From Lingula anatina (taxonomy: Eukaryota; Animalia; Brachiopoda): a DNA stretch of 64,000 nucleotides. The position numbers were made by a program, and so were the translations under genes. The stretch spans positions 19,592,001-19,656,000 of the forward strand of contig CM120646.1 in assembly GCA_051362555.1 (NCBI GenBank), written 5' to 3'. Below the pieces are notes generated by a model that saw only the letters and a list, made by a program, of their open reading frames with translations, had not been told where the DNA came from and did not search any database. Positions 6,164 to 57,838 of this stretch are shown here, piece after piece (position 1 is the first letter of the stretch; each line of letters starts with the position of its first letter).

Positions 6164-7102
6164 CTGAAAAAAAAAAGACAAAAAGGGGCATAAAAAAACT
6201 ACAAAGAATAATAAATACAACAACAATTAAATAATTTGATTTCTAGTCAAATCAAATATTCCTGAAGGGCCATGTCATTCTTGCTGGTAGCGAAAAGCCT
6301 CTGACCAAGCAAACATATAAAAAATCTATATAAAAATAATGACTTCAACTAATTCTAATGTAGGATATTATTCATGCCCTACTTTTTGGGAACACTGCAG
6401 CCTACAGTTATGAATAATGAATAAAAAGCTGGTAGCCTTTGGCAGGTATCTGTTTAATACATGTGACTAAAATCCACATCCTCTGCAATACCTGGAGGCA
6501 TACTTACTAATGGAATTAAACTTTTAAGGAAGCCATGTGTAAGATAAGTGTATACACTTAACATGTTTTACCCTCTTTAAATAAGGTTTATTATCATTTT
6601 TATTATTATTGTTCTTATCATTAACATCAATTTAAACCTGTTCAGTCAAATAAAATGAAAAGCTTAAGTCGTGATGTTTGCATTGTGTACTCATTTCATG
6701 TCTCATCAACATTTCAAGTTATTATTTTTTTCAGTCACGTCAGTTAAGATGCAGTAAGTGGTATATATTGAATGAAGATGTAACTAACTTGAAAATATAA
6801 ACACCTAAACTATGCCAAACGTAGGTTGTAGTTTAATTAAGCGTACAAACGAAACACACAAAAATTGATAACATAGATTCATGTGTGTGCGGCAATATAC
6901 TATGAGTCATGCAATCAGTTAATGTCTTGGCGCAGGTTATAACCTAATTCCGCGGTCGGTGACTGTGAGTGTGACACTGACACTAGCGTTGGGATCATAG
7001 AAGTTGATTTCCACTTAAATCTGTGTGTAGTGTCGCGAATCTAAGATTTATCTGAACGTGATTAGTTTCAGCAATATCTTGACATTCTTTGGTGTTTCTT
7101 AC

Positions 7103-7179
7103 CCCTTGTTTCTATCACAGCAACAAGATCCACCAGCTTGTTGAAGACAGCGGATACCTGGAGCTACCGAGTTGGACAT
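7103..7179 (-). CDS. SLC37A2: SLC37A1/2-like sugar-phosphate exchanger, coding exon 1
   Basis: ATG at 7179 gives MSNSVAPGIRCLQQAGGSCCCDRNK-G, with donor GG|gtaag at 7102 (phase 2). The S-V-A-P-G start resembles the vertebrate SLC37A2 N-terminus as I recall it (MRSSLAPG). Confidence 0.85.
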
Positions 7180-8167
7180 TTTGGCAGGTCACATGATCTG
7201 TTAAGCAAGCCGCGATATCACGAGCGAGCTAATCCTAAGAACTATTTGCAGTCTCACATAAACCACCTCTTCACCTTTGGCCTGTTTTCTGTTTTGGATT
7301 ATTATTTTAATTTTAGTCTTAAATAAATTAAGTATCAAAATGCTTTTTGTTTTCTTTGAAGCACTGGAATATTTACACTTTCTAAACGAGAACTCGTTTT
7401 CAATAGTGCATTTTATTTAAATACCGTACTGATAACGAGACTCCAATTTGGTAGGCGTTTATGTGAAAAAAATAAAAACTTGAATGTAAAAGGGATTAAG
7501 TTAAAATATCAAATAATTTTTAATTAATCTTAATAAATTAAGATAATTCAGGAATACTAATAGTTTCATTAATGTTTTCATATTGACAATCTGCTAGTTC
7601 CAATGTTGCGGTCCTCCTATACTTCCGTTTTGCTAAAAATAGTTCCAATTTGGACTATTTACCGGATCTTACTTCTGATATTAATGGGCATTTTAAATAA
7701 ATGCTCATCATTGAGTTATTTTCATCTGTTTGGTAAAGAAATGCACATTCGTTATGTATTTTTAACAATATGCTAGCCATCTTTATTCTGGACGAAACAA
7801 TAAATGCTTTTATTTATTTATTAGATTTATTTTCCATCGGAAGTAACAACCACATTGCAGCTGTTGCTCGGCTTTGTCTCAAAGTGGTAAATTCATTAAA
7901 AATTTCCAAATTTCATTGTAGATATTCAACAACATTAGCTGATTGATGGTAATAATATCCCAAATTGACACAGATTTGACAAGCGGACCCTCTAAAGCGT
8001 GCACTAATACCACCTTGTCCCATCTGAGGAAAACGGAAGCACGGGCGGTGAACGGGAGCGTATTTACAATCAGTGGGAGTAAAGCAAGTTATTCCAAATT
8101 TGATGTGTCACTGCGAGAACTATCTTACAACAAATGACCATAAACACACGCCGGTAGTAGCTTCAAA
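7180..8167. promoter_or_regulatory. Head-to-head (bidirectional) promoter region between SLC37A and the RhoGEF
   Basis: Divergent ATGs at 7179(-) and 8168(+); CpG is visibly more frequent here than in the introns; CGGAAG ETS-type motifs at about 7621, 7838 and 8034; E-box GTCACATGA at 7188-7196. Confidence 0.7.
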
Positions 8168-8184
8168 ATGTCCGTAAATGACAA
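8168..8184 (+). CDS. ARHGEF11: PDZ-RGS RhoGEF (ARHGEF11/12, RhoGEF2-like), first coding exon 1a
   Basis: caaaATG TCC GTA AAT GAC AA|gtaagt. Phase 2 joins exon 17695 to give MSVNDKLGSLS, resembling the ARHGEF11 start as I recall it (MSV...DRLSSLS). Confidence 0.8.
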
Positions 8185-10039
8185 GTAAGTTGGCCTTTCT
8201 TTACATTTTAACGGACTGGTGGGTGTCTTGATAAAATTCAAGAGTGGTGAATGTAGTTAAAAATTGGGTCAGACCCAATCCATTCATTCCAGTTTACACA
8301 GAATGTGATGAAAGTGATAACAATTTGTCACCAGTAGCTGTGGGTGAAGACAGATGCTTTCCTGCCCAAGTACTCTCTCCTAATCTCTTACACTGATTCT
8401 TCAGTGATTGACCCTGTACAAGTGCCCTGGGAAAAGATAAACAGGACAGTGGACACTAGAACAGCAGCTGCTGTAACTAGAAGGAATAGCCCAATATCAA
8501 CAAGGCACGCTCGGCTATCACCTCGATTGGTTAGAAAATTAAAATCTCCCTATAATTGCTACATGAATTAAAAATGGGTTGCATAATCTTTGAAACCACA
8601 TAAAATGATCGTGCCATACTAGTCTACTATAAAGCAGTAAACCCTATCAGAATCAGTTAAAGTATTCAAAACGAATGCCGTTAAGTTCCCATAGGCTCCC
8701 ATAGAGTCAATAAAATAGGGAGAGCTTGTGAAACAAGGATACCCTCGAGGCACATTAAAAATTCAAAATAAAATAGAGACAGCCTTCAAATCACGCTCAA
8801 ACTCACTCCATTTACATCAAATGTCCTCATTTACATTGTCCATTCATTGTTGGTAAATCCCACACGGACATTGGTTGAAATCCATGATAAACGCCTAAGA
8901 AGACCTCCTCGTTCAGACTGCTAAAAGCGTTAGGTGCACTTGTACCCTTAGCCTAGAAATGATTTATGACATGTTACCTCTACTTGGTCATGTCTAGATA
9001 AATGTACAACAATTTTTTTTAAATTTTGGCTTTTAAAAACCTTTTCTACTCTCTTTTAGCTGATTTGCATGTATAATTGGAAGGCATGGTAAAAACAAAC
9101 TTGCCTGTTTTGATTATGAGCGCAAACTTAAATTATGGGCATAGACTATTACATTACAATTGATTTGTAGTAAAGTCTAGGAAGATCTCTATAAGATTGC
9201 ACAATTTTTGTTATAACATGAGTATTGTGTGTTAATTTACTGTCATTAGTTCTAGTAAGCCTTTAAGTCATGTTTATCAGAGCACGATATAGCTGTCATT
9301 GTGCAGAGTAAATTGATTCCATTAAAACCCTAGAGACTGTTAAATCTGCAATTATCAATATATAACAGTGTTTGATCTTCTAAAGCCAGTAATGCACCAA
9401 CAATAGTTGTACATTTCCCATGTTGTACTCATTAGATGCTGTTAGCTTCAAGTGAGCCCCAAACCAACAAACTGTGTGAATAGTGTAAAAATATTTCCAA
9501 TCTGTCTTGGATTGCTGGTGTTGATTGTTGAAAATAATTGAGGTATAACAAATATATGTATCACACTGTCTTTATTTTTATGGCAATGACATACAAAAGA
9601 AGTTAAAGTTTTTTTGCTTCACTTCAAAACTCTACCTTTTTTTCTAAACTAAAACACATTGGATAAATTTATCTATTATTTGCATAGCTGTTTTCTTTAT
9701 TATGTGTAAACTTAAGTGTATATTTATATAACATATATTCACTAATGTTCCAAGACTCCTAAAATTTATTTCATGAATGACTAAAGGACATACTAGCAGA
9801 AAGACTGTGGTATGGATTTCTGCAAATTTGTCTCTTAATTACTGTCAGAGCACGACATACTATCTATCCATCACAGCAGTGTTTGATGATAATGATTTAT
9901 AATAAATTATAGTTATCTTTTCCTGTGTGAGATATGAGCACTCAGTTTGTGTACAAATGCCACTTCAAGCTTGATTATTTTATATGAACCTCCATAAGAA
10001 AGTAAAGTTGTGGTTTTACATATTGGGACCAAAGGCAAG

Positions 10040-13277: not shown

Positions 13278-14574
13278 GTAAGTGTCACTTGACCCCTGTC
13301 AGCTGGAAAACATCTGCTGAAGAAAAAGGAGTAAAATTGGATTTCCTTTTTTAAATTTAAAAGATATTTTTGTCACATGATCTGTCAAAGGTTAATTCAA
13401 ATTTAAACCAGCAGGTGCTTTGTGGGGCACAGGTCTTAATTTCCTGCATTTGTTCTTACATGAAGGGAACTTTGTTTCATTTTTTGTGTGTATTTAAGCA
13501 CGCTGCATTAGGATAAGAACAGTAGCCAGGCAGAAGTGTGAATAACCTCTCTGTTTTAACTCCCACTAACACTGTTGGTGGGAGAGAATGAAAATACCAA
13601 TGTGTAGAATGCAAAATTTGTTTGCCCCTGCTTGTTTGGTGTGCAAAGACTGGCATCTTTCTGATGTTCTGTTACTATACATTGTCTTTTTTTTAACAAC
13701 AGATAATTAAGTTCATTATAATTCTGACCAGCCCTCAAGTACATTTTTGCCCTTTATGACAACACTGCAATTTTTCTACTGGTTGTTTATTGGTTTATTG
13801 AATTCCTTCTTAATCACATTAGGAGTTAATTGAAAAAGTGTAAATATAACCAGTGGCAGGCAGCCTGGGAGACTGGGGGAACTTAATTATCTCCAACGTT
13901 TTTGACTAAAGTTTCTGGCAAAGAACAGATGCAGGTTCGGCTTGCTAATGAGCCACTGGAGGAGCAAAAGGGAAGATTTGAACTTTACTGGGAGTCAACT
14001 TGTGTTAAAATCTGTGGCAGCTGAAATTAATTCATTTCATTCTATTCTTGGAAATTTCCTCAACAGTCCAGGCATCGATAAACAGCCAATTGCTTCCAAA
14101 TTCACCTCAAGTGGGATTCAAAAGTAAATGTGTTTGCCTTATGTTGTTAGTTTTTATAGAGTGGAAGAAGGTGAAGGAGGAAGAGTGAGGATTTTTTATC
14201 ATCAGAGAAATCAGTTGATTGGAGGCAAGGAAATTTCTAACTTGTCTACTGTTAATGATTACATGAGCAGAAGAGCAGCACATTTGTTGGAGATTTACGT
14301 AAGGGTAGATTCAGGGGCAACTGTTATTGACAAACAATTTCAAGATTTATTTGAGACTTTTGAATGTAATCTGGATACCTGATATCTTTCTTGAAAGATT
14401 CTCTCTTGTTTGCCATTGGAGGCAATGTTGGGTTTGTACTTTTTAAAGAAATGAACATCTTCATTGAATCAACCAATAGCTGATGGAATGCAATTGTTGA
14501 TTGATAGATGTACATGAAAAAAACATTTTTTTTTCTCCATTGAAATTAAAATTGTATGGTGCTAGGTAAGGGAG

Positions 14575-15530
14575 ATGGAAGAATTACAGGATATTTTCCC
14601 ATCACAAAAGCAATGGGATGAACAGTTGCCTGAAGAACAGTTTCCAAAGTTTCCCCTTCACTTGCCTACAGAATTACTGATAAACTTCCCAGAGGAGAAG
14701 TCCACAAATGATGTGGCATTTGAGACCAGTTCTGGCCAGCATTCTAGAACTGGAATACAGAATACTGTGGGAACTTTTGGTGAGGGATCTCAATTTGATC
14801 ATCCTGCAGCGAAATCAACAGAGAGGAGAAAAAACAGTAGGGAGAGGCTCTGTTTGAGTCCTGCAGACAGTGAGTCTGTTGATGTCTTTTGTGACAATTG
14901 TCAGTCTGTCAGTCAGTCTCGTGCTGCAGATATGCCATTGGAACACCAGGAGTCGCAGGAGAGCAGGCATGGGGAATACCACAGTAGGTACCCACCAGTC
15001 TTTGAGCCAGTAATTACAAAGAAAACCCTGCCTTACCCCCAGTCACTGCAAGACAGACAACTGGAGCTGGGTGTGACCGGGTTTCAGGCTGTTGTAAGTG
15101 GAGAAAGCCTTCTGGACCCCCATTCTTTACTTGCCTTCAATGGCAATGACAGCCAAAGAAGGTGGAGCATGGTTGAAAAGGACCGTCGTTCATTTCTGAA
15201 ATCTTCACTCCCTCAAATAGAAAACTCCGAGGAATTTGATGCGAGAGCATTTCTGCCCAAAGCTGAGAACCCACTGCCTAATCATCTTGATGTGAACAAT
15301 GAGGCTGACAGAGAGATGAAGGTGACATACCGGAATAGTACAGCATCAACCAATTCAAGTGGATATCGGAGCATACAGGGAAGAAGTGCCGATAATGTGA
15401 CACGAAAAGGATTTTATTTTCAGCCTGAAGCTCGCCTTGTGCGTATGTACGGGTCAGCTGATGATATACTCCTAGATTTGAATGCTGAAAACAGAAATTT
15501 GGTATCTGCTAGTACTTCTTGTTCATCTCA
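14575..15530 (+). CDS. ARHGEF11: Alternative large first coding exon of the RhoGEF (318-aa low-complexity N-terminal extension)
   Basis: The stop of the 319-aa ORF falls inside a perfect donor (TCT CA|gtaagt). 956 nt is phase 2 and splices in frame to exon 17695 (CA+G=Gln, then LGSLSR). Confidence 0.75.
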
Positions 15531-17694
15531 GTAAGTACAGAGGGGCTTGGTTTCAAATAAAGACAGTGATAGGCTCTTTTTATTAGTTTTCACAACCTTT
15601 CTCCTCTCGATAAAGTTATTGAGCTCATACACTTATGTATGCAAAGATATGTACTTAACACATTTATACAATCACAAGTATAGAGATAATTGATTATAAT
15701 TATTATTAATCAATTAATTAATTAATTTTTTGTTTGTTTTTGAGGGAGAACATCAATGGATTTCATTAATGATAGCTTTTCAATACAAACATATATATGC
15801 ATTTACATGTGCACGTACACACACACTTAAAGTGAATGAAATTAATGCATGTATTTGTTTCTCTAGAATGAGATTACAGTGTTTCTAAAACTTTGATCTT
15901 GGTTCAGTTGGGTAATAACGCAGTGGCACACATTAGGCTTTTGTGCTGTTAAACACATGTCATTTTTCTTTGATCTTCTTTGATCTCTCCAATGGCATGC
16001 AATGGCCACTCAAGACATAACACTCAGTGGTTTGGAAGCTGTTGTGGATGAGATTTGCAAACAAAACTTGTCAAAAAGAAATCAAAACCCGTTGAACTCA
16101 TGAAGCACAAATTCTAAATTTACTAATTGGTCAATAAATCTATTGAAAACCAACAACGTTGAGAATTATGAATTAAGTTAATAAAGATAGATGAGAGAAG
16201 TTGTCAAACTCCTATGAATATGATGTATAAACAGAACATGCAAGTGTCACCAGATGAATCAATAACATAACTTTGGATAATCTATTAATCAACTGAAAAA
16301 AAATGGCTGTCAGCCTCCATAATACCCATGGGCGCTATTTTATGACAAATCAGTAATAGATGAACCTTGCTTGATTGGCCCAGTATCTGATTAGTCTGCT
16401 AATTAGGTTAGTTAGTTTTGAGGACACAGGATTTAATTATGCTTCATTGTCCAATATGTCCTCTCCAGTTCACTTTCAGTAGAGCCCTGGGAATCAATAG
16501 AATCCACATCATATCAGTACTGTGGTGGATTGTGTGGGTCCTGTGATGTGATGTGGAAGGCCTTGTCAGGTTAAGAAAGGCTGGGATTAACAGGTGTCAC
16601 CAACGGGGACAGGGATTATCCAGTTTAAGTAATCTCTGGGTTTGTGCTGAAGAGGTCGCCTGTGGGTAGTTGTTCTATATTATAATGCAATTTCTGGGTC
16701 AAATCTGAGTGAAGGAAGAATAAGGTTAAAGTTGGCAGTGGCATAAGGAATGAAGGACCAAATCTGGCAAAAACTATATTCTAGAACCACATTTCATCAT
16801 TTATGTAGTACTAACCTATTTGTTGTAGACCTAAATTACAGATTTTCATATAGAAAAGTTCATGCATGTACTTTTGATAAGACTGTCAGTGGTTCTGGTA
16901 TATATATTCTTTGTCAAAGCATTTAGTACAGTACATGAGATTCTTATTAATATTTTAAGGTGGAAGATTGGGTGGTCCATCTTTTCACCTGCCCTTTTCT
17001 TCAGGATTAATCACAAGTCACATTTGGCTTTTTCACTGTAAACTGGAGGCAGCCTGCAGCTAAAATATTGGCAAAGACTTCTTTCTTCAACTTTGGAGTC
17101 TGCTTCTTTGAAAAACACCAGAGCAAGGCCAATGCACTTTCTGTAAAACAGGAATGTCAAATGTTAAAATGTTTTTAGGGAAATTATGCAAGGCAATTAG
17201 AGCGTGTTACCTGAGATGAACCAACATGAGTCTTGCTTGTGGTATTAGTATTAGTTGTGGTTAATCTTGGGAATGGCAGCATCCAGTGTACATTTTTCTG
17301 TGAATCTCCCATTTTGTTTCAAAGAAAACAGCTTGCTCTATTAGCACTGGAATCTGAAGCTTGCAGAGCATCAAATAAAGTGATGTTGCCAATGTTATCT
17401 GGTGTTTTATTTTCTGGACATTTGGCAACTAAAAAGCTTTGGAATCTTGTGAAGTTGTCACTGTGAATTTTTCATACCCTCGTTGGTTTGTGAATGCTTA
17501 TAAACAATTCCACATTTTTAGAATATGTTTTATTGTATTTTATTATTCATCATTGTTAGACAAATTAACCCTGTGTGGATTCACACCATATATTTTACTT
17601 CTTATTAAAGTGTAAGTACAAGAAATGGCATGATAAATGTGTACTTAGCACCATCTTACCTGTGTCAGTATCGTCACTGTGTTTTATTTTCCAG

Positions 17695-17780
17695 GCTGGG
17701 AAGTTTGAGTCGAGACTCCAGCAAAGAGGACCTGAAGCCACCTCAACCAGACAAAATTATAGACACAACAGATTCTCAAG
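17695..17780 (+). CDS. ARHGEF11: RhoGEF exon 2
   Basis: ttttccag acceptor; LGSLSRDSSKEDLKPPQPDKIIDTTDSQ; phase 2->1; AAG|gtaat donor. Confidence 0.85.
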
Positions 17781-17819
17781 GTAATGGCAGCAGCTTTCCA
17801 CTGGCACTGATCTATCAAT

Positions 17820-17994
17820 GGCCCCATTCAGAATAGGGGACTAACTAGTCAGAGGGTCAAATATAGCGACCCAGTAAAAAGCTTGCCGTCCAGTTCGCTG
17901 ATAGACACTGAATAGATATTCCTTGGGGAAGTTTTCAAGTGGGTCGGCCATATTTGACCCTCGGACTAGTTAGTCTTCTATTCTGAATGGGGCC
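17820..17994. mobile_element. MITE family A copy 1 (about 54-bp terminal inverted repeats starting GGCCCCATTCAGAATAG)
   Basis: Left arm ggccccattcagaataggggactaactagtcagagggtcaaatatag; right arm reverse complement ggccccattcagaatagaagactaactagtccgagggtcaaatatgg. Related copies at about 41914 and 62050. Confidence 0.8.
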
Positions 17995-18731
17995 TATCAT
18001 AAAACCTGGATGTGTCCAGGCACAAACATATAACACAAGCCCATATGGGCCTAGACAATGTCACAAGTCAGATGTGGTAACTAAATTTAATCTATAAATT
18101 AGCAGGAGCAGTTCAGATTGTATGTCTCTTTAAAGCCATCATTACACAGCATCAGTTTAGCTGTTCTCCACATAATCTTAGAATTCCTGGTTAATTCATT
18201 ACATGGTCTGGTGAAACTTTCAAGACTGTATGATTGCACCTGCTGTCACACCTAACACAATCTCCAGTCACAGAAATGATTGGGAACTGTTTTGGTTTGG
18301 AAAGCATTAGGATGGGAGACTCAGACCTGTCAATATCTTATCAAATAGGATGATGTATGCATTTTAGAAGCATTTTAATGCATGGACTAGAAACAATGTG
18401 CCCTACATATTTTATACATATAGAAGTAAACTTAGACAAGCAGTGCTCAACAGTGCAATATAAATTTTGCTGCACAGGCCAAGCAAGCACTTATCACACC
18501 TAGCATTGGCTTTATGCAGCTAGACTGACCTCATCTACTGCATTATATTATGTCATAGTCAACTAATACAATTTTAACCAAATCAATAGTGAAGTGGCAG
18601 AATTATTAGATAGTTTTCATTTTCTTTAGCCAGAGCACACCTCTTATGCAGAATTTAGTGCAAAATGTCAGAATGTTTAGTCTGTTGCATGTGTTGCCCC
18701 CCAATTTGAAATGTTTGTGTTTGTGTTGCAG

Positions 18732-18836
18732 GAGAACAGTTAATCCAGCGCTGTGTGATAATACAGAGAGATGAGAAGGGCTATGGTCTGACCGTCAGTG
18801 GAGACAACCCAGTGTTTGTCCAGTCTGTCAAAGACA
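18732..18836 (+). CDS. ARHGEF11: RhoGEF exon 3 (PDZ start)
   Basis: EQLIQRCVIIQRDEKGYGLTVSGDNPVFVQSVKD, the PDZ of LARG/PDZ-RhoGEF (QRCVIIQKD...TVSGDNPVFVQSVK); phase 1->1. Confidence 0.97.
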
Positions 18837-19260
18837 GTAAGTAATGTGCCACTAACATTGAGTGCCATATGTCGCATTCATAAACGTCATATCATACACA
18901 TATACCTGTTATTTATAACAACATAAAATTATACTTGTGTGTAGTCTGTGTATGTAGTTCTCTTTGAAGTGAATGTGCCGATCATTGTCACCAAGAAGTA
19001 AAAAAAAAAGTGATTTTTATGTACATTATTTTGAATTCGTTAAAGATCATTTAAATTTCTGTTCATTTGTTATATTAATTTTCTGTACTGTTTTTGATAT
19101 TTTTTTAACATTTGCAAGCTCAAATGGCAGGGTAGAACTTAATTTAGAGAGCTTAATGAATCTGCTGAAAGTTCTCAGGTCAGGGAAGAAGCACAATAGA
19201 TCCTTGTACAAACTTTGGAGTAATGAAGTGGTCTAATAAAGTTTGTGTTTTCTCCACCAG

Positions 19261-19310
19261 ATGGTGCTGCTGCCAGGGCCGGGGTTCAGCAAGGGGACAG
19301 AATTATAAAG
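19261..19310 (+). CDS. ARHGEF11: RhoGEF exon 4 (PDZ)
   Basis: NGAAARAGVQQGDRIIK; phase 1->0; AAG|gtaagc donor. Confidence 0.97.
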
Positions 19311-20475
19311 GTAAGCTACTGATATGATCACATGTAAAAAGGGGAAGGTTAGTTTGTGGATGGGGGTGAGCCATTTCTTCTCCTTTTCTCCTTAAGCTTC
19401 TTAATTACTTTTTTATGCAAATTTTTAAAAAATTTATTTTACTGAAAATATGTTATATATACAACTTTTTTAATTGACACAGATTCTATATGAGAAATGA
19501 TAACACTGCATTTTCTGTCAACATGTTACCCCACCCCCAAACAATGCACACCACTCCCAAAAAAGAAAAAAAGGGCATATTTTTTGTCACTATATTTTAT
19601 CAGCCCAAGGATAGAGGAAAGCATTTCTTTTAGACAATTAAAAAATGCCCATGGTACAAGATAAAAGGCCTCAGTAATATTTAGTCTTAGGGTCAAAGAT
19701 AATTAATTTTAATTAGAATGCACTTAACTCAGTGGAAGATGTTTCAAGAGTAATTATTAATTCTCATTTGATGACTAGTATCTGCAGGATGTAATAAACT
19801 TAATTAAGGAGAGGATGAAAGATTCAAGAAACATTTTATTGTCATAAACATCAGGCCTTAAATGACATAGATTTTATATTTTATGCAAGAAAGATATAAT
19901 GATTAATTACACCATTGACTTGTTATTAAAAATGTTGTTTTATTCCTTTGATTTACCTTGCTGAACTGATTGAAATAACTTTTATGTGCATTCTGTAGTC
20001 TTTCAGCAAATTTTATTTCAATAATTACCAGTATGCTTCATGAAACATTAACAGTTGTTAGTCTTTCTTGTCATCTATGATTTAGTTCTCAGTGCTTACA
20101 TAGGCTAAGTAGGTCATATTAATATACTCTACTCAACAGCCTTATGAGTGGTTGCCATGTGGAGTCAGGTCGCTAATGGCAATAATCATCATCTTAGCAA
20201 AAATTACCGAAAGTGCCACTGATTTGTTCCGACTTCTTTGCAGCTCATGACAATATATTTGATACAGAGTGTTCACAGTTCTTATTTATGAACTGTTAAT
20301 AGATTATACTCATTGGTTATAGGTACTAGGTATGAAAAATGCAGCCAGCCTGTTATTTGTATAGTTATCCAAAGATTTACTGTGAAGCAGAGATATAAAT
20401 GGGTGAACTTGTATTCAGGTTGAAGCCTTGTTATACCATATATACGAAGTTCGTTTGGCATTTACAATCCTTATA

Positions 20476-23400
20476 TTACATCATTTGTGGGATCCAGGTG
20501 TGATAGCAGCTCCTACATTCAACAGGTACAATATCCACTTTCACTTTCACTCCATATTCTTCTCCATCACCCCCACTGCCGTCACGGCCCCCATTATCAC
20601 CCGTCTCCACAGGCTCCAGTAGCTCGTATGTATATGACTGCTGCTCATAGTGCCACCTGTACTCTAAATGGCGGTGGTAGTTCTCCCCGCGGCTGTCAAA
20701 GTTGTATTTATGACAGTTCTCCAGAGAGACTGGATGCAGCTCTGGCTGTAGCGTTAGGGTCTCCCTGTGGCGGGTGGGGAGGGAGACCCAGATGTCTTGC
20801 CCGTTGACAGGACTGGCTATTGTAATGGAGGATGAGAAGTTGAGACCCGTGGTTTTGCTCTTATTGGCAGTGTTTACATTAGGTTTGTTATTTCCATGGC
20901 TTCTTAAAAAACTTTTGTTAGTTTCAAGATTTATGACTTTCTCTTTGTTCTGCAAAATACTGTTGGTGAAATCGTTGCGGTATGGGAAGCCATTGGTGCC
21001 AAGATACCTGCTGTTTGTCCTGGGAGGTTCTTGATTATGTCCATGTTTGTTGACATGAGGACCATCTCTGTGGATGGGGGGGATTGGATCTGGTTGCCCA
21101 TTATGATAGCTGAGGGCACCAGAATTGGCAATGGGAAAACCTCCATTTTCAGACTTATTCACAGCATTTGCTGTTGTTTTGTGAGACATACCTGACTGCT
21201 GTTTATTCTGTCCCCTGTATGTAGTATTCTGTGCAATCGATGGTTCCGAATTGGAGCTATTTCCTCTCATTGTTGAAGCAGAATGAGACTTGCGTGCTTG
21301 CCTTGCTCCCATTGGCAAATTTTCATTACTATTATTATTATTAAAGAGATTTTCATTGTATCTGGAATGTCCGTTTTTGTATGTTTCCAGACCATTTCTG
21401 GTATTTACGTTATTCTGACCCAGATGATTGTCAGATGCTGGTGAGTTGGTGGCAAGAGGTTTCAATTCGTGCCTCGTCTTCTTTGTGCTAGTGGTACTGC
21501 CACTGGCTTGATTTGACTTCTTTTCCCTGTCATAAAGATAATCAAGCAAAGTATCACCAGCATTATAGGTGAAGCTCCTTCTTGGAGACCTGCCTCTCTG
21601 CTTTGTTAATGTGGGATTCACAGGGTGTAGTCCTTCACTGATGTCTGTATTATGCCTACTCCTAGCCTTAAATCCTGTGTTCTCTCTGGCCTGAATATCC
21701 ATGGTGGTTTCAACCCTGTAGACTTTCCACCGTCTCTCAGTATACACTGGCGTGTAGACTAATCTAGTTGGTCTCCTCACTCGTGATATACTAACTGGGC
21801 GTGTGTGTTTGCCTGCCAGCTGTGGCTTGATAGGATGAACAACGTCAATGGTAACACCTTGGAGAATTGTCAGATCTGAACGTCTCAGTTGATGATGTTG
21901 TCTGTTCCGCAACAGCTTGTCATTGATGTAAATATGCAGGTTTACCACACATTGGCTTAGTGACGGCAATGAGGAGGCCATTTGGTGATGGGCAGTTTCA
22001 CCCCAGCTGTGGTCATTTATGGTTTTGGTGTGTGATTGGTGCCCATTGGTAGTTTTCTCCCTGATCACTGTGTCCACACAGCTGTCTGTGGTAAGTCTGT
22101 GCCCTCTGTGGATGTATGTCCGCATGTTACTGCTGATGCCGCAGTGTGATGCTTGCTTGTAGTTTGTATGTACACTGGTGTCTACCTGGCAACAGATGTC
22201 TGGGATGTGGAGGCTGCTGGACCCCCTCAGATTGGAGGAGACGCCACTGAGATTACAAAGAAGATGGTCGTCATTCAACGCTAAGCTACCGGTAATGTTA
22301 TCAGATGTTGTACCTTGTAAAATGTGCACTGTGTTCCTTGGTCTTTGTTGGTCGACACAGGTGAATAACTGCTCTGAAGAGTGGACCTGAACTGTGTCCT
22401 TTTGCTTGGCTGACAACTTTGCTGTGTCTCTATCACAAAGCTGGGAAGGACAGTTGTTATTCCTATTACCCAAAGTTGATGTCCTCCCTGGAGGCCCTTG
22501 AAGGACTGCGTTGTCTTTAAGTGGCATCACCTTATGGGGAAAAGTTGTTGACAAACGAACTGGGCTTTGAGGTGATGACCTTTGTTTGTGAGGAACAACT
22601 TTTTGTCTAGTAGTCCTCTGGAATGTGGAGGTTTCATGGTTCCTCCAGGCACAGCTAGGGGGCACAATCTGGTTTAGGTGCCTAGGTGTAGAGTTACTGG
22701 CACATTGGTACCGAGGTTTATATGGGCTGATTTGACTTTGAGGCGTTGGCTGGCTTGGATTCAAGTTCTCTGGAGGGCGTGTTGTTTTGGTAGTTCTATA
22801 GAAATGTGTACTATACAAGTTTGTACCTGTCACCTTGTTTAATGAGGTACCTTGTGTCTCCTCATTATTGCTGGAAATGGAGTTGTGATTGTTGTTATTG
22901 ATATCATCAGAGTTACTGTGACTTTGGTATTTGACTTCGTTTGCCTTTTCGGTTTTCATAGCAGTTATCTGGTTGTTGATGGTTTGACCTGGATTGTTTC
23001 TATCCATGGTGTTGTTAGCACTACTGCCTCTGCTGTTGTCAGAAAATTGGTCTCTCTTTCTTGTTGTAAACTGAACCTTATAGGTTTTACCAGCTGATTT
23101 TTTGCTTGGAATTTTTGCAAAGGCAATTTTTTCTCTGTTGTGATCAGAAATTTGACCCATATTGTTTGTAACACCTGTTGCAATATCACTTTCTCCATAC
23201 TTGGCTACATGAGAAACACAACCCTTTTTGTTTTTGTTATGAATTATTTGATGTCTGCCATAGTCTTTTAGCTGCCTGATATTGTTGGTGTCATTAGGCA
23301 GGCTGTCAAATGGCAATGTGTCACATGAGATAGTGTCACATGTACCTTGAGTGTCTTCTGGTAGTATGTCACTTGGCAGAATGTCACATGTACCTAGAGT

Positions 23401-23583
23401 GTCACATTGTGCCCCTGTCTCAGGCACTGGTGACATTGCCCACCTGTAGGAATTATACAGTTCTTCAAAGCTGTCATCATCATCATCATAGTCACTGTTG
23501 TCCCCTCTAGATCTGATGTGCTCGACAGAGGAGGTGTAGGTTTCTTGGATAAAATCATCCAGTTTGTCCGTCTGGGTATCCAT
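20476..23583 (-). CDS. Nested antisense 1035-aa hypothetical protein (Ser/Thr/Asn/His-rich, largely disordered) within RhoGEF intron 4
   Basis: 3.1-kb uninterrupted ORF in AT-rich DNA. I recognise no RT, transposase or other domain. AATAAA signals lie on the minus strand downstream (20012-20017, 19939-19944, 19835-19840). A possible acceptor at 23649 would extend the exon. Confidence 0.8.
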   Translation of the reverse strand: MDTQTDKLDDFIQETYTSSVEHIRSRGDNSDYDDDDDSFEELYNSYRWAMSPVPETGAQCDTLGTCDILPSDILPEDTQGTCDTISCDTLPFDSLPNDTNNIRQLKDYGRHQIIHNKNKKGCVSHVAKYGESDIATGVTNNMGQISDHNREKIAFAKIPSKKSAGKTYKVQFTTRKRDQFSDNSRGSSANNTMDRNNPGQTINNQITAMKTEKANEVKYQSHSNSDDINNNNHNSISSNNEETQGTSLNKVTGTNLYSTHFYRTTKTTRPPENLNPSQPTPQSQISPYKPRYQCASNSTPRHLNQIVPPSCAWRNHETSTFQRTTRQKVVPHKQRSSPQSPVRLSTTFPHKVMPLKDNAVLQGPPGRTSTLGNRNNNCPSQLCDRDTAKLSAKQKDTVQVHSSEQLFTCVDQQRPRNTVHILQGTTSDNITGSLALNDDHLLCNLSGVSSNLRGSSSLHIPDICCQVDTSVHTNYKQASHCGISSNMRTYIHRGHRLTTDSCVDTVIREKTTNGHQSHTKTINDHSWGETAHHQMASSLPSLSQCVVNLHIYINDKLLRNRQHHQLRRSDLTILQGVTIDVVHPIKPQLAGKHTRPVSISRVRRPTRLVYTPVYTERRWKVYRVETTMDIQARENTGFKARSRHNTDISEGLHPVNPTLTKQRGRSPRRSFTYNAGDTLLDYLYDREKKSNQASGSTTSTKKTRHELKPLATNSPASDNHLGQNNVNTRNGLETYKNGHSRYNENLFNNNNSNENLPMGARQARKSHSASTMRGNSSNSEPSIAQNTTYRGQNKQQSGMSHKTTANAVNKSENGGFPIANSGALSYHNGQPDPIPPIHRDGPHVNKHGHNQEPPRTNSRYLGTNGFPYRNDFTNSILQNKEKVINLETNKSFLRSHGNNKPNVNTANKSKTTGLNFSSSITIASPVNGQDIWVSLPTRHRETLTLQPELHPVSLENCHKYNFDSRGENYHRHLEYRWHYEQQSYTYELLEPVETGDNGGRDGSGGDGEEYGVKVKVDIVPVECRSCYHTWIPQMM

Positions 23584-25252
23584 GTCAGATATCTTGTCTC
23601 TTTGATATTCTTCAGAATGTTTACACCTTAGTGTCTCCTTTTTGCCGTCTGTTTACAGTTGACAGCGAAGTTAGAATTCTCCAATGAAAATTGTTGGTGG
23701 TGCAAAATTAGGAAATGAATTATGTGTAACCAGTGTCCAGACAAGGGGTATCAAGCGATCAAATTTTTTTCAGTTTTGAACCATTTAAATTTTTTTCAGT
23801 CTGGAACCATTTTCATGTTTGTCTCAAAAGAAGCTTAGACTTATATCCATGATGAATACCACCACGATCTATATAAATAGATATAATGTATAGATGGATG
23901 CTGTGATGAGTCTCTTGAGTTAATGGTCCTCCTTTGAAGTGGTATTTTAGTACAGTTTTCCTTTAGATTACCTTTCCTTACCTCCAAACATTTTGTCTTA
24001 TTGACCAACTGTTGTGCAGTCACTCACTTATGATGTTGTAAGTTATGTTTTTCACAGCTGTTTTTCTGTTCCTGCCCAGCCTATATTGACACAACCATAT
24101 ATACAAAAGTAACAATCTTATACCCCCAACACTTAAGCTGCATAAGTTTATACATTCCTATACCATGGTCTACCGATACTGGGCCCTTGACATGGATTGT
24201 TTCATCATAACCAAGGTGGAGGTCCTTGGCAAGGGAAGCATAACCAAAAGGACAGATATGTATTCAGGTTTTGGGGCAAACCTGTGATTTCGAGGCCACT
24301 GTTCTGCACTGTAACTTATATAATGGTAGAGGAGGGGCTGTTAACTTAGGAGTGACATACTTTGGAGAACAGAGACACAAAAAGGGTGGTGATATCTGAT
24401 AGGGCCATGTGGGTGACACGAGAGGGTGATTTTCCTGAAAATCAGGGGCTGCTCTGGGCTTTGGGTGTATTTTGTTACACTGTTAATATCTACCTGGCCT
24501 ATTTGTGCCTTTGCAAGAATGGTTTTGAAAGAAACATGCTGATACAATTCTGAATAGTTTTTTATAAGAGACTACAAGGGATTACTGCAGTAAATAAAAA
24601 ATTAATTTTGATGTATTAAGTTGCCCTCCTGACAAAACACAAGAGTTAATCGAGGTAATGGTATGCTTATAAATAAGTTGTATCAATTCATATTTTTGGT
24701 TAATTCAGTTCAATTTATTTATGTACCAATACATGCTTCAATGCTAAGTACCCTTAACTAAAATAATTTTTAATGATTACAGCAGCTTTCATTGTTTTTA
24801 TGGTATTATGTTTCACTATTGCTTGTTATTTTTAGTACAATAAGAAATCAAATTTCTCTTCCTTTTCAAAATCATTTCAAGGAAAAAATGGACATTAATG
24901 CCACTTTTACTTTCACATTTTTGGGGGCGTGTTCTTTTAGTTGTACATCATTTCCACTATCATCATATTGGGTATTAAATGTGTGCTTTAGGATGTATGT
25001 CATCTAAACGTTAGATATTTGGTCAACAACCTTTAATCTCTGTTTGAATTTATACTTGTCTTTTTTTCTTGTCATCAGTCATACAGATATGCATATAATT
25101 TGACATTGATGTACTCTTATCATATGATCTATATACATTCAGCTGTCTCTGTTGCTTACTGATTGTGCTAGTTGAGACAATTGTGTGATGATACTTCTCT
25201 AACACAATCACAATCTCCTCACTGCTGACATGTTTGTGGTCCTCTTTTCCAG

Positions 25253-25310
25253 GTGAATGGGACCCTAGTTACAAATTCCAACCACATAGAAGTGGTCAAA
25301 TTAATCAAAG
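25253..25310 (+). CDS. ARHGEF11: RhoGEF exon 5 (PDZ)
   Basis: VNGTLVTNSNHIEVVKLIK; phase 0->1; AAG|gtaag donor. Confidence 0.97.
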
Positions 25311-25452
25311 GTAAGGACTTGCTTTCTCCCTTTTGATAAATTATATAACTCGTGTAGATCTTGGCATAGATTATGTTGTGATACAAGGGAGGTAGAGAAA
25401 AGAATAAAAAGTGGCAAAAGCTATGTAATTAGAAAAGCATGATTATAAACTT

Positions 25453-25455
<3 letters not shown>

Positions 25456-25503
<48 letters not shown>
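25456..25503. repeat. (GT)n microsatellite
   Basis: Directly visible. Confidence 0.95.
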
Positions 25504-25506
<3 letters not shown>

Positions 25507-28500
25507 AATGTGTTAGGTACAATCACTGCCTCCTTGACACAGATAAATGGTTCAGGTGCATGTTATGTTTAGATTAGGTAGCCATGTCAAGGACATATCT
25601 CTGTTTATCTTTCCAAGAATGATATGATATTCAGATCAGTCTAGGTGCCTCTCTCACATTAATGCCAGGCTAATAAGTCGTCAGCCTCCTCGCAAATTGG
25701 AACAGTCCAATAAACTGCATGGCTAGATGTGACAGCCTAAGATATGCATTTTAACTTCTTATCCTAGCCTTGATTTAGTTTGGCATAAAATCAACATCTC
25801 TTCCCCTCCCCCCCCCCCTTTCAAACACATAATTACAGGATAACAGACACATCCTTAATGAGTTTCTTAGAAGTAAATTTGAAAGATTTTACTCAATGGA
25901 AAATCCAAATTTTTTTTAAAGATCCTGTTAATGCATGGAATATTTTGTTTGAGTTTGTTAAGGTAACAGGAGTGATTGGACCAGTTTAGCATAGAAAAGC
26001 TGTAAAAGTATGCCTTCGCTATGTGGATTGTTAGTGTTTTTGTCTTGATTAATAAACATGATTATATCAAGAAGTAGTAATAAGTGTTTGAGAAAATGAA
26101 CAATCCTCTTTCTGAAAGATATATTTTCACTTGCTTTTGCTGCATTCATAGTTCTAAGAAAAATTTTTCATCAATTATTGATAATTTTCCAAGAACCTGT
26201 CAACATAGGTCTCCTACAGATATTTCCCACCAGTTATTGAATGTTAATATTTAATAGTTTTCTAAGAACCTGTTAACAGGTAATCTCCAGTAATCATGGG
26301 GCACACCTCAGCAGTGATAAGACGCCTAACATACTCGTATCCCTCATATCCTAGGACCTCCTACCAGAAGGACGTCATTCTAGGTTTCCTTCGTAGAAAT
26401 TATCACCTTTTTTTCTCGCACATTGAAACCATTTAGTGCTTCCATAACAAAAGGTCCTCGCTCCTGTGGGATTTTGCAGAAAGGGTTCTGTATGTGCTTC
26501 ACTCTGAATTAAGTGGAAGGTTTTTGCCGTGCAGTATGTTTTACGTGAAGTTGAACAGCGCACCTACAGACCCTCAACCCCAGAGGGTATGGTCTAAGAA
26601 AAGAGGTATGGTTGACAGATGAGGCTTTTGTTGCGTACTACTTCTTGTATCTAGAGAAAATCATCAAAAGAGATAAAGCACCATAGCAGCAGGGCTGATC
26701 AAGTAGCTATGGTGCGAATAGCTGTGTGTGTTAGAATCAGAGTGCCATAGCCATGTTGCTGATCAAGTGTCTTTGGTGTGAAAAGTTTGATTATTGATTC
26801 ACCCTTCTAACTTAGCAAAGGTGTTTTATTCTGAAGATATATTAAATCTGATGTCTGTGAGTCACTGTGTCACATACATATTTAATTACTAGTAATTCAG
26901 TCAATTAAAAAAATGAAGTCCTATGTTCATTGATATGAAAAAAAAAACAGGTAGCAAAAATGAAACCAAAATAAAAATTAAAACCGAATTGTAAGTCAAA
27001 CCACAAATGTTCTGTACTGAACTAAGTATCAATACCCAAATCAAGTATTTACTTAAATACCCCCTTGTCTATATTGGAACATAAACCCACAGTTTCTCAT
27101 AATAAAACCAGGGTGGACTGCCTGATTAAGAACAAAAAGGCTGTCAGATTTTATAGGTAGGCATTCTAGTGCACACTTGTGACTTGAATAAATAGGCTTA
27201 TTGGGCACCCTTTGAGCTGGTGATAGTTTATCATGTCTGATAGGGCGGTGGTTACTACGGGGCAGCAGCTTGGTGGTAGTTCAATGCCCTAAGTGGACTG
27301 TTTAGGAGCCAAGGTACTTTAAGCAACAAAAATTTGGGAGAAATTTTGTAGGTGTTTTGATGTTAGAGCCTTGTCCCATTGAAGGCAGGACAATGGTGTG
27401 CTTGTTGTCTTGATTTATGATCGTTTAAGTTAGGGGAGTTTAGAGAGACATCTTACCTGTGGAATACTTCTTTATGATTACGACAGCTGGAACTTCAGTG
27501 AAAGTCATCCAGAAAATCAGTGTGTTTTCATCTTCTCATGCTCGAGCCTCGGAAAGTTGTTGCATTACTGTGATGAATAGATACAATCATTGCAAAGAGT
27601 AATATCTATTTGATGTGGACATTGCCTCAGGTGGTGCCATTTAAGTACACTAGGGAGGTGTGAAGTGGCAATATCTTGATGCTTTCTCCCAGCAGTAGGA
27701 AAACTAAATACAAAAGGTTATCAAAGGATATGTGTTTTGCCATAATTTTAAAGAAGCTTTCATCTACAGGTGCGACAAAACAGAAAAGGTGTGAAATTTG
27801 TCGATATTGAATAGCCAAATGACTTCGTGATTTCTGTGCATGGTGTTAATAGGAATATATGACTTTTTCACTGCAGTGCAATTTTTAATGAGAACTACCT
27901 ACTTGACGAACAGACATTCATGATTCATACCTTCTCCGACAGGGTACAAACTGTACCACATTGTTTGGAGAAAGCAGTCTCGAATACAGGTGATGTGGCA
28001 CATGTTGTGGCAAACTTAGTGCCATGCTGCAGTTTGAGGTGGTTCTATCCATCTGAGACAAAGTGTCAAGGCAAGCCAGTAATTGATGGAACACAGACAT
28101 TGGGCAAGTCTTCTAGTCACTACTTACTGCATAAGTCACAAGCCAGCTGGTGGAGTAGAGTCAGAGGTAGAATGATTAGAGGACAATCATTTCTTGTTTT
28201 GTCAGAGGGACTTTGCCAAAGTTAAGCAATATATGCTTACTCTGTAAGGGAAATTAAGTTTTTGAGCGTGCTTTCAATGAGCAGAAGGCTGTAGTCAGTG
28301 AGTGGCAAACAACTTGCAGAGACGGAGAGAGACAGAAGACTCCTGTATTTACAAAATAAAGGAAGATATGATCCTAAGTATTTGTCAGTTGTTGTTTGAT
28401 TTGTGGAGAGCATCCTTGATAATATCAAGATGAGGACACATATAGCTCTCCCCACTCTGTTTGCTGGGCCATTACTACAGGTGATAGTTATTTAATGTGG

Positions 28501-29394: not shown

Positions 29395-29530
29395 ATGCCA
29401 GGACTTCAACGTGACAGATCCAGGGCTATAAGGAGGCCGCGGAGGAGTAGCGCTGGGGCCATCGTGCCTCTAAATAATGGTAACACCACAAGCCAGGGTA
29501 AAGATGAAGGTGATAGCAAAGAACAAACAG
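29395..29530 (+). CDS. Candidate alternative first exon of the RhoGEF (PDZ-truncated isoform)
   Basis: caccATG context with an upstream in-frame stop; MPGLQRDRSRAIRRPRRSSAGAIVPLNNGNTTSQGKDEGDSKEQT; CAG|gtaatg donor; phase 1 matches exon 38128. Confidence 0.5.
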
Positions 29531-32184: not shown

Positions 32185-32338
32185 ATGGCAGACAAGCCTC
32201 CCTCGGCCCCGGCGCCCAATAAGTGGGAGCCTTCAGGGTGGAGGAGGCGATTAAATCGCAGGGAGAGGTCCATGAGACGTCCCACGTTCCCCCTCCCCAG
32301 CAACAGGGCTGGTGTAGCGGGACATTTATCAGACCCAG
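32185..32338 (+). CDS. Candidate alternative first exon of the RhoGEF (PDZ-truncated isoform)
   Basis: caagATGG context in a GC/CpG-rich patch; MADKPPSAPAPNKWEPSGWRRRLNRRERSMRRPTFPLPSNRAGVAGHLSDP; CAG|gtgagg donor; phase 1 matches exon 38128. Confidence 0.65.
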
Positions 32339-57595: not shown

Positions 57596-57838
57596 ATGGA
57601 CTTTTTGAGTTACGGGAATTCATGGAAATTAGACAGCCGTCGCCCTAAGGCATCTGCAATGCTGTGTAGGGAAAGTCAAGAAGGGGGTAAACCTCAGGAC
57701 GGAGGGGGTGTTTGTGGGGTGGTGGAGGGGTTGGAGTATTCTGGCAGTAAAGAACCCCCAGAGGAACATGCACCTTTGATATATATGGCGGATGAACTGT
57801 CCTTTATAGACGAGTTTGTGGAGGAAATAAGATTTAAG
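57596..57838 (+). CDS. Candidate internal alternative first exon of the RhoGEF (PDZ-less isoform)
   Basis: agcATGG start; 81 codons MDFLSYGNSWKLDS...ELSFIDEFVEEIRFK; AAG|gtgaat donor; phase 0 matches exon 60986. Confidence 0.6.

What the first reader, a model, noticed from the sequence alone, without database searches (positions are those of the whole stretch)
20476..23648. Orphan-looking 1035-aa gene nested antisense inside the PDZ-coding region of the RhoGEF
Seen: a 3.1-kb stop-free ORF on the minus strand fills about half of the 5.9-kb intron (19311-25252) between the PDZ exons ...GDRIIK | VNGTLV. It has downstream AATAAA signals, and I see no TIRs, LTRs, RT or transposase motifs. The protein is mostly S/T/N/H/Q-rich, with islands that look structured: an acidic N-terminus (DDDDDSFEELYNSYRWAMSP), short CD[T/I]L repeats, a hydrophobic/basic block (VVNLHIYINDKLL...ILQGVTIDVVHP...RLVYTPVYTERRWKVYRVET) and a C-terminal block (IWVSLP...HRHLEYRWHYEQQSYTYELLEP...VKVDIVPVECRSCYHTW, with a CxxC). 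The frame stays open 23 codons upstream of the ATG, and a CTAAC branch point plus AG at 23649 suggest it may be the giant last exon of a spliced gene. Inference: a lineage-specific nested gene. Its antisense transcription could interfere with PDZ-containing host transcripts while leaving the downstream PDZ-less promoters untouched.
Basis: partly seen in the sequence, partly recalled or inferred. Interest (0 to 1): 0.8.

Follow-up and report, generated by a model that had tools for sequence, protein, structure and literature searches.

The report
Large orphan gene inside RhoGEF intron
In the lamp shell Lingula, an intron of a RhoGEF gene holds a separately transcribed, opposite-strand reading frame for a 1,035-residue protein with no relative found in the databases searched; it is likely a fast-evolving, mostly unstructured, tissue-limited gene of a common nested kind, and no effect on the host gene was seen.

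Summary
Confirmed: a 1,058-codon stop-free minus-strand frame (ATG 23583, 1,035 aa) lies in the 5,942-nt PDZ-splitting intron of Lingula anatina ARHGEF11/12. It is transcribed: three unstranded runs from a diverged lineage cover about 19,950-24,072 (16-17 of 17 bins; flanks 1 of 8), and one stranded run gives about 7 opposite-strand reads; two other stranded runs give none. Five molecules end at 24072, 31 nt from a TATA-type box. All three indel events seen keep the frame; 13 of 21 listed substitutions are third-position (omega about 0.5, not significant). No homologue among 1.84 billion cluster representatives, Pfam, PDB, PHROGs or viral contigs; no confident fold. The 'giant last exon' idea is not supported: reads run unspliced across the acceptor, though an in-frame 92-nt mini-exon may exist. 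Interference is not supported: host splicing across the intron is not lower where the nested gene is on (14:16 vs 13:31 junction reads). Verdict: a real, unannotated, unusually long, lineage-restricted nested antisense gene of a well-known kind. Interest 0.3.

The parts
18732..18836 (+). Host ARHGEF11/12-like PDZ exon (first part of the PDZ domain)
   Evidence: RNA joints; PDB match to ARHGEF12 PDZ E 3e-14; RefSeq isoforms
19261..19310 (+). Host PDZ exon just upstream of the nesting intron
   Evidence: RNA joints 18836->19261 and 19310->25253
19311..25252 (+). Host intron (5,942 nt, GT..AG) that contains the nested gene
   Evidence: Joint seen in 5 of 6 runs laid
25253..25310 (+). Host PDZ exon just downstream of the nesting intron
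24096..24103 (-). TATA-type box (fits the TATAWAWR consensus, consensus recalled); likely promoter of the nested gene
   Evidence: Sequence; first base lies 31 nt upstream of the read pile-up at 24072. Promoter activity inferred
24072..24073 (-). Likely transcription start
   Evidence: 5 molecules end at 24072 at depth 6 in X7 only (3 distinct starts, so partly possible duplicates); zero coverage in 24225-25204 in X7-X9
23584..24073 (-). About 490-nt leader, with five short upstream ORFs (4-8 codons) if unspliced
   Evidence: Covered by reads in X7-X9; uATGs at 23991, 23850, 23816, 23810, 23784
23982..24073 (-). Candidate 92-nt first mini-exon: ATG at 23991 and a consensus-like donor at 23981, in frame with the AG at 23650-23649 (would add 25 residues); splice not observed
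   Evidence: Sequence; 7 of 7 X7 reads run through the donor and carry a changed +5 base
20476..23583 (-). 1,035-aa ORF plus stop; predicted 116 kDa, pI 9.1, no hydrophobic segment (maximum 19-residue hydropathy 0.98), so likely intracellular
   Evidence: transcribed
23314..23583 (-). Acidic N-terminus (aa 1-45, net charge -12) and short CD[T/I]x repeats (aa 60-90; a 48-nt duplication, 75% alike)
   Evidence: (family D2)
21694..21951 (-). Hydrophobic/basic block (aa 545-630), basic clusters that could be nuclear-import signals (inferred)
   Evidence: no Pfam match; pLDDT about 28
20479..20805 (-). C-terminal block (aa 927-1035) with three weakly predicted strands and one CxxC (20506-20517)
   Evidence: mean pLDDT 43; C1023 codon changes only synonymously, H978 changes to R in X7-X9
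19939..20475 (-). 3' UTR with AATAAA at 20017 and 19944; likely 3' end near 19,950-20,000
   Evidence: Coverage in X7-X9 falls from 1-3x to 0-0.4x in bin 19815-20059; no poly(A) tail read was listed

Best explanation
This is a separate opposite-strand transcription unit inside an ARHGEF11/12 intron, likely started from its own TATA promoter, read mostly unspliced, and likely encoding a fast-evolving, largely disordered intracellular protein that likely serves as a tissue-limited (most likely germ-line) scaffold rather than as a regulator of the host gene. Shown: the frame, the host intron, RNA over about 19,950-24,072, opposite-strand reads in one stranded run, frame-keeping indels, absence of database relatives, intact host splicing. 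Inferred: promoter and 3' end (read boundaries plus motifs), translation (selection signal only), disorder (composition and failed single-sequence folds), gonadal expression (by analogy with nested genes in Drosophila and mammals; tissues of the runs are not known here). Origin, inferred: an older fast-evolving or retroposed gene whose relatives are no longer detectable, settled in a long intron on the strand that least disturbs host splicing.
For: Coverage: X7/X8/X9 cover 16, 17, 17 of 17 bins from 20060 to 24224 (mean 2.0, 2.7, 2.5x) and 1 of 8 flanking intron bins (mean 0.02x). Strand: in X3 all 28 listed host joint reads have the first mate on -, while about 1,007 read-bases (about 7 reads) over 20550-22509 have it on +; host-sense depth over the ORF is 0.008x. 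Ends: pile-up at 24072 is 31 nt from the TATA-type box; coverage stops at the AATAAA pair. Constraint: three indel events in the ORF (20556-20581 net -3; 20900 -3; near 21487 net -3) keep the frame and a 23-nt diverged patch at 23104-23126 keeps its length; 13 of 21 listed substitutions are third-position (p 0.007), 8 synonymous, 13 not, none a stop; listed differences 17 in 220 nt of 3' UTR against 9 in 222 nt of adjacent ORF (p 0.11). ORF GC 44.5% against 32-35% in the intron flanks. Patchy expression: none in X1 and X4, about 1% of host-exon depth in X3, about 30-40% in X7-X9. No relatives: while the same collection holds the host's RefSeq models. Nested genes in Drosophila are 71% opposite-strand, evolve fast and 44% peak in testis (PMC3814207, PMC5174743; passages).
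Against: Direct strand evidence is only about 7 reads (3-4 pairs) in 1 of 3 stranded runs; X7-X9 are unstranded. The flank control is imperfect: part of the leader is about 77% alike in X8, so more diverged intron reads of X7-X9 could fail to map. Omega about 0.46-0.61 is not significantly below 1 (p 0.06-0.16) and rests on 21 of about 190 differences that the tool showed. The pile-up at 24072 is in one run with 3 distinct starts. No peptide evidence. Five upstream ATGs would lower translation if the leader stays unspliced. No RefSeq model of the ORF was found in the collection. Tissue, copy number and function were not testable.
Confidence: 0.62

Rival explanations
1. Relic or domesticated ORF of a transposon or endogenous virus that inserted into the intron and has not yet decayed.
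For: Intronless, GC-richer than its intron, no cellular relatives, weak constraint.
Against: No TIR or LTR pair in the intron; no Pfam, PHROG or viral-contig match; no partial reads from other copies even at 80% likeness (0 reads fit two places), unlike the MITE at 17813-18001 that drew hundreds; present with frame-keeping indels in a lineage about 8-10% diverged at neutral-type sites.
Confidence: 0.12
2. Isoform switch: antisense transcription blocks PDZ-containing RhoGEF messages in the expressing cells and leaves downstream PDZ-less promoters active.
For: Geometry fits: the unit faces the host promoter near 8,100 and lies upstream of the starts of RefSeq PDZ-less isoforms X7 and X8. Interference between nested and host genes is reported (PMC5174743 passages; PMC11694760 abstract).
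Against: Joints across the nesting intron versus the previous intron: 14:16 in X7-X9 (nested gene on) and 13:31 in X1+X3 (off or nearly off); no drop (Fisher p 0.15, in the opposite direction). Library types differ and bulk RNA can hide a cell-type effect. Expression is low.
Confidence: 0.1
3. The ORF is the second exon of a two-exon gene: a 92-nt exon (ATG 23991, donor 23981) spliced to the AG at 23649 in some tissue or in the window's own lineage; or the last exon of a longer gene further upstream.
For: The donor is consensus-like and in frame with the acceptor; branch-point-like CTAAC lies 20-24 nt upstream of the AG. Depth at the site is only 1-3x, below what would reliably list a minor joint.
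Against: No joint or loose end at 23648 listed in 6 runs; X7 reads cross the donor (7) and continue past 23697 (3) with colinear sequence; the donor's +5 base is changed in X7-X9; acceptor at the low end of host acceptors; nothing upstream of 24,224 is covered.
Confidence: 0.1
4. Non-coding or untranslated: a low-level antisense RNA or retained host intron over a pseudogenising frame.
For: Few stranded reads; omega not significantly below 1; five upstream ATGs; host-sense intron reads exist at 0.2-1.5x in X1.
Against: A 1,058-codon frame kept open with three frame-keeping indel events and third-position excess; X7-X9 depth is 30-40% of host exons, against about 5% for host pre-mRNA in X1.
Confidence: 0.06

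Closest known systems
Opposite-strand nested genes of Drosophila (Lee and Chang 2013, PMC3814207; Assis 2016, PMC5174743; passages read) and mammalian host/nested pairs (PMC11694760; abstract and outline read)
   Same: Whole gene inside one long intron of a conserved, broadly expressed host; opposite strand (71% of fly cases); faster evolution and narrower expression than the host.
   Different: Coding length 3,105 nt against a fly median of about 900 nt for opposite-strand nested genes; no parent gene or paralogue found; testis peak not tested here; no interference seen in bulk RNA.
Lineage-specific (orphan) genes, most of them explainable by homology detection failure (Weisman et al. 2020, PMC7660931; abstract read)
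   Same: No detectable relative outside the lineage; low-complexity, fast-evolving sequence; sparse sampling of brachiopod genomes makes detection failure likely.
   Different: Their test needs orthologues at several distances, which are not available here; about a thousand residues is long for such a gene.
goddard of Drosophila, an orphan gene needed for spermatogenesis (PMC13195035; passages read)
   Same: Orphan protein with disordered regions around small ordered cores; a model for how such a protein could work.
   Different: No sequence link; Goddard is 113 aa with a shown central helix and a shown function; here neither structure nor function is shown.
Zinc-ribbon knuckles ending in CxxCxxxW (TFIIS C-terminus, ZAR1-type 3CxxC; motif recalled, from no call)
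   Same: The last residues of the protein have the same CxxCxxxW spacing.
   Different: Only one CxxC in the whole protein; no second pair; no Pfam match for the block at E up to 5.

Membership tests
Nested antisense protein-coding gene | Lies wholly within one intron of another gene | tested here: met
   Host joint 19310->25253; RNA of the unit bounded at about 19,950-24,072
Nested antisense protein-coding gene | Transcribed from the strand opposite to the host | tested here: met
   About 7 opposite-strand reads in stranded run X3, none in X1 and X4; boundaries in X7-X9 fit minus-strand TATA and AATAAA. Thin but consistent
Nested antisense protein-coding gene | ORF under purifying selection | tested here: inconclusive
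   3 of 3 indel events keep the frame; third-position excess p 0.007; omega about 0.5, p 0.06-0.16 on 21 listed sites
Nested antisense protein-coding gene | Translated | not testable with these tools
   No ribosome or peptide data
Lineage-specific (orphan) gene | No detectable homologue outside the lineage | tested here: met
   0 hits at E up to 0.001 among 1,835,955,588 representatives; 0; brachiopod and phoronid genomes could not be searched directly
De novo gene | Non-coding orthologous sequence in outgroup genomes | not testable with these tools
   No animal genomes held
Transposon or endogenous viral ORF | Terminal repeats (TIR/LTR) around the ORF | tested here: not met
Transposon or endogenous viral ORF | RT, transposase, integrase or viral protein domain | tested here: not met
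Transposon or endogenous viral ORF | Several genomic copies | tested here: inconclusive
   No genome held; single copy in the window; no pile of partial reads from other copies
Zinc ribbon (TFIIS-like or 3CxxC) | At least two Cys/His knuckles giving four ligands | tested here: not met
   One CxxC only; H978 not kept in X7-X9
Secreted shell-matrix or membrane protein | Signal peptide or transmembrane segment | tested here: not met
   Acidic hydrophilic N-terminus; maximum 19-residue hydropathy 0.98
Antisense interference switch | Host transcripts across the nested unit fall when it is expressed | tested here: not met
   14:16 vs 13:31 joint reads; bulk RNA, different libraries, so cell-type effects remain open

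The most novel reading that the evidence does not exclude
A thousand-residue gene born de novo from intron DNA in lingulid brachiopods, several times longer than nested orphan genes usually are, whose germ-cell transcription also shifts the host RhoGEF from PDZ-bearing to PDZ-less isoforms in those cells.
Probability: 0.06. Interest if true: 0.75.

Novelty: new member of a known kind. Interest (0 to 1): 0.3.

Why it matters
It adds a real, apparently unannotated gene to Lingula and a clean test case for the origin of large orphan genes: because it sits in an intron of a conserved gene, the orthologous place can be found in any brachiopod or phoronid genome, which allows birth from intron DNA to be told from loss of detectable homology. 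It also offers a fast-evolving nuclear marker that separates lineages filed under one species name. The arrangement itself is common in animals, and no new mechanism is shown.

Tried and rejected
No whole genome is held, so copy number and synteny were not testable. The ESM Atlas search gave no result. Word-index search of 569-1,812-aa proteins: 0 of 6,492 candidates. Pfam on the whole protein and four blocks: only one sub-threshold PUB_1 hit, E 0.29. PHROGs: three hits at E 0.15-0.27, taken as chance. Viral contigs: 5 pattern matches, none confirmed. Rfam over 17500-26000: 0. AlphaFold2 without alignment: mean pLDDT 32.6 (whole) and 42.9 (aa 910-1035), too low for a fold search, so none was run. 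Low confidence without an alignment does not itself prove disorder. Two host differences (17752, 17755) were first read in the wrong frame and redone. Earlier findings: nothing near this place, by words or by sequence. Papers holding 'Lingula' with 'nested gene' or with 'ARHGEF11': 0 and 0. The spreadsheets of the chromosome-level genome paper (PMC13121700; gene ages, expression) were too large to be read and may hold a model, age and expression profile of this gene. Zinc-ribbon, shell-matrix and transposon readings were considered and rejected (see membership tests).
Full report
1. The observation. The minus-strand frame 20476-23652 is open for 1,058 codons; the first ATG (23583) gives 1,035 aa. 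The other five frames hold 38-103 stops and 2,000 shuffles gave at most 198 codons. The ORF is 44.5% GC against 31.6% and 35.1% in the intron flanks. The host is the Lingula anatina gene annotated in RefSeq as Rho guanine nucleotide exchange factor 11/12: a 51-aa host exon finds XP_023930146.1 at 100%, its isoforms map exon by exon on the window, and the PDZ exon matches ARHGEF12 and ARHGEF11 PDZ structures. The organism's name first came as a lead from earlier notes on this genome and was then confirmed. RNA joints confirm the 5,942-nt intron 19311-25252.

2. Transcription. Six of nine offered runs were laid. X1, X3 and X4 are stranded (all listed host joint reads have the first mate on -: 27, 28 and 4 reads); X7-X9 are not. 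X1 and X4 show no opposite-strand read in the intron; X1 shows host-sense intron reads at 0.2-1.5x, which is pre-mRNA. X3 shows about 1,007 read-bases on the opposite strand over 20550-22509, about 7 reads, against host exon depth 24-28. X7, X8 and X9 cover 16, 17 and 17 of the 17 bins from 20060 to 24224 at a mean of 2.0-2.7x, and 1 of 8 flanking intron bins at 0.02x; host exons there stand at 5-11x. Oligo-dT bias may inflate that ratio, and diverged intron reads may fail to map, so the flank control is not perfect. Still, both ends fit minus-strand signals: five X7 molecules end at 24072, 31 nt from a box at 24103-24096 that fits the TATA consensus (recalled), and coverage dies in the bin that holds AATAAA 20017 and 19944. 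Expression is thus patchy: off, off, about 1% and about a third of host-exon depth. The tissues are not known here.

3. Splicing. The reads do not show it: no joint or loose end at 23648 is listed; 7 X7 reads run across the donor, whose +5 base is changed in those reads; 3 X7 and 4 X8 reads continue through the would-be intron with colinear diverged sequence. The branch point and open upstream frame are weak evidence (19 such sites; p about 0.17). Depth is low, so a minor spliced form stays possible; a long upstream gene is unlikely.

4. Selection. X7-X9 differ from the window at fixed sites, about 4% in coding and about 8% or more in untranslated sequence, well above the 1.6% heterozygosity reported for the species (PMC4595640, passage); divergence among western Pacific populations is reported (PMC8146825, abstract). 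They likely come from a separate lineage and act as a natural outgroup. Three indel events in the ORF all net -3 nt (about 1 in 27 by chance). Of 21 listed ORF substitutions 8 are synonymous, 13 not, none a stop, 13 at third positions (p 0.007); omega is 0.46-0.61, not significantly below 1. The tool showed only the best-supported 40 differences a call, so this is a small part of about 190. In host exons 5 of 7 listed differences are synonymous. The ORF is constrained, but loosely.

5. The protein. About 116 kDa, pI 9.1, 29% S/N/T, no signal peptide or membrane segment, one CxxC. No match in Pfam, PDB, PHROGs, viral contigs, the 5.8-billion-cluster word search or the full scan of 1.84 billion representatives; the exact sequence is not in the collection that holds the host's models, so it seems unannotated there. 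Single-sequence folds are uninformative, though both place three short strands in the C-terminal block. Composition points to a mostly disordered intracellular protein with two or three small ordered patches (inference).

6. Effect on the host. But joints across the nesting intron are not rarer where the nested gene is on (14 against 16 for the previous intron in X7-X9; 13 against 31 in X1+X3). Bulk data cannot exclude an effect in a few cells.

7. Mechanism and comparison. The best reading is an independent, mostly intronless antisense gene with its own promoter, expressed in a limited tissue, likely the gonad, and encoding a fast-evolving disordered scaffold. Nested genes make up nearly a tenth of fly genes, 71% are opposite-strand, and 44% peak in testis (PMC3814207 and PMC5174743, passages and abstract starts); over a tenth of mammalian genes hold one (PMC11694760, abstract). 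Many orphans are explained by failed homology detection (PMC7660931, abstract), and goddard shows that a disordered orphan can be essential for sperm (PMC13195035, abstract start and passages). What stands out here is size: 3.1 kb of coding sequence against a fly median near 0.9 kb. Two paper searches found no mention of it; unread spreadsheets of PMC13121700 (passages read) may list it.

8. Verdict. Real feature, new member of a known kind. Interest 0.3; 0.75 if de novo birth with a host isoform switch were shown (probability about 0.06).

Noticed in passing
window 17813-18001: MITE-like element in the host intron: 55-nt terminal inverted repeats, 87% complementary; hundreds of partial RNA reads from copies elsewhere map on it.
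   Followed up: partly
window 14566-15531 (+): 322-codon open frame ending at a GT donor, likely an alternative first exon of the RhoGEF; not found in the 7 of 10 cluster members mapped, no Pfam match or longer relative; not covered by the RNA lays.
   Followed up: partly
window about 29395-29530 and 32185-32338 (+): Two short ATG-started frames ending at GT donors in the next host intron; candidate first exons of PDZ-truncated isoforms. Untested.
   Followed up: no
window 43017 and 57596-57838 (+): Starts of RefSeq PDZ-less isoforms X7 and X8; X8 has its own 81-codon first exon.
   Followed up: partly
runs X7-X9, window 17700-25310: Fixed differences from the window at about 4% in coding and 8% or more in untranslated sequence: likely a separate lineage under the same species label.
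   Followed up: partly
window 21512, run X3: Two opposite-strand reads share the X7-X9 letter and carry 10 other differences, while X3 reads at 20635-20695 match the window: perhaps a divergent allele segregating in that population, or a second copy.
   Followed up: no
window 7000-9000: CpG observed/expected 0.54-0.86 against 0.27 for the window, at the host's first exon (ATG near 8169): likely an unmethylated promoter; the nested promoter region (0.16-0.17) is not such an island.
   Followed up: no
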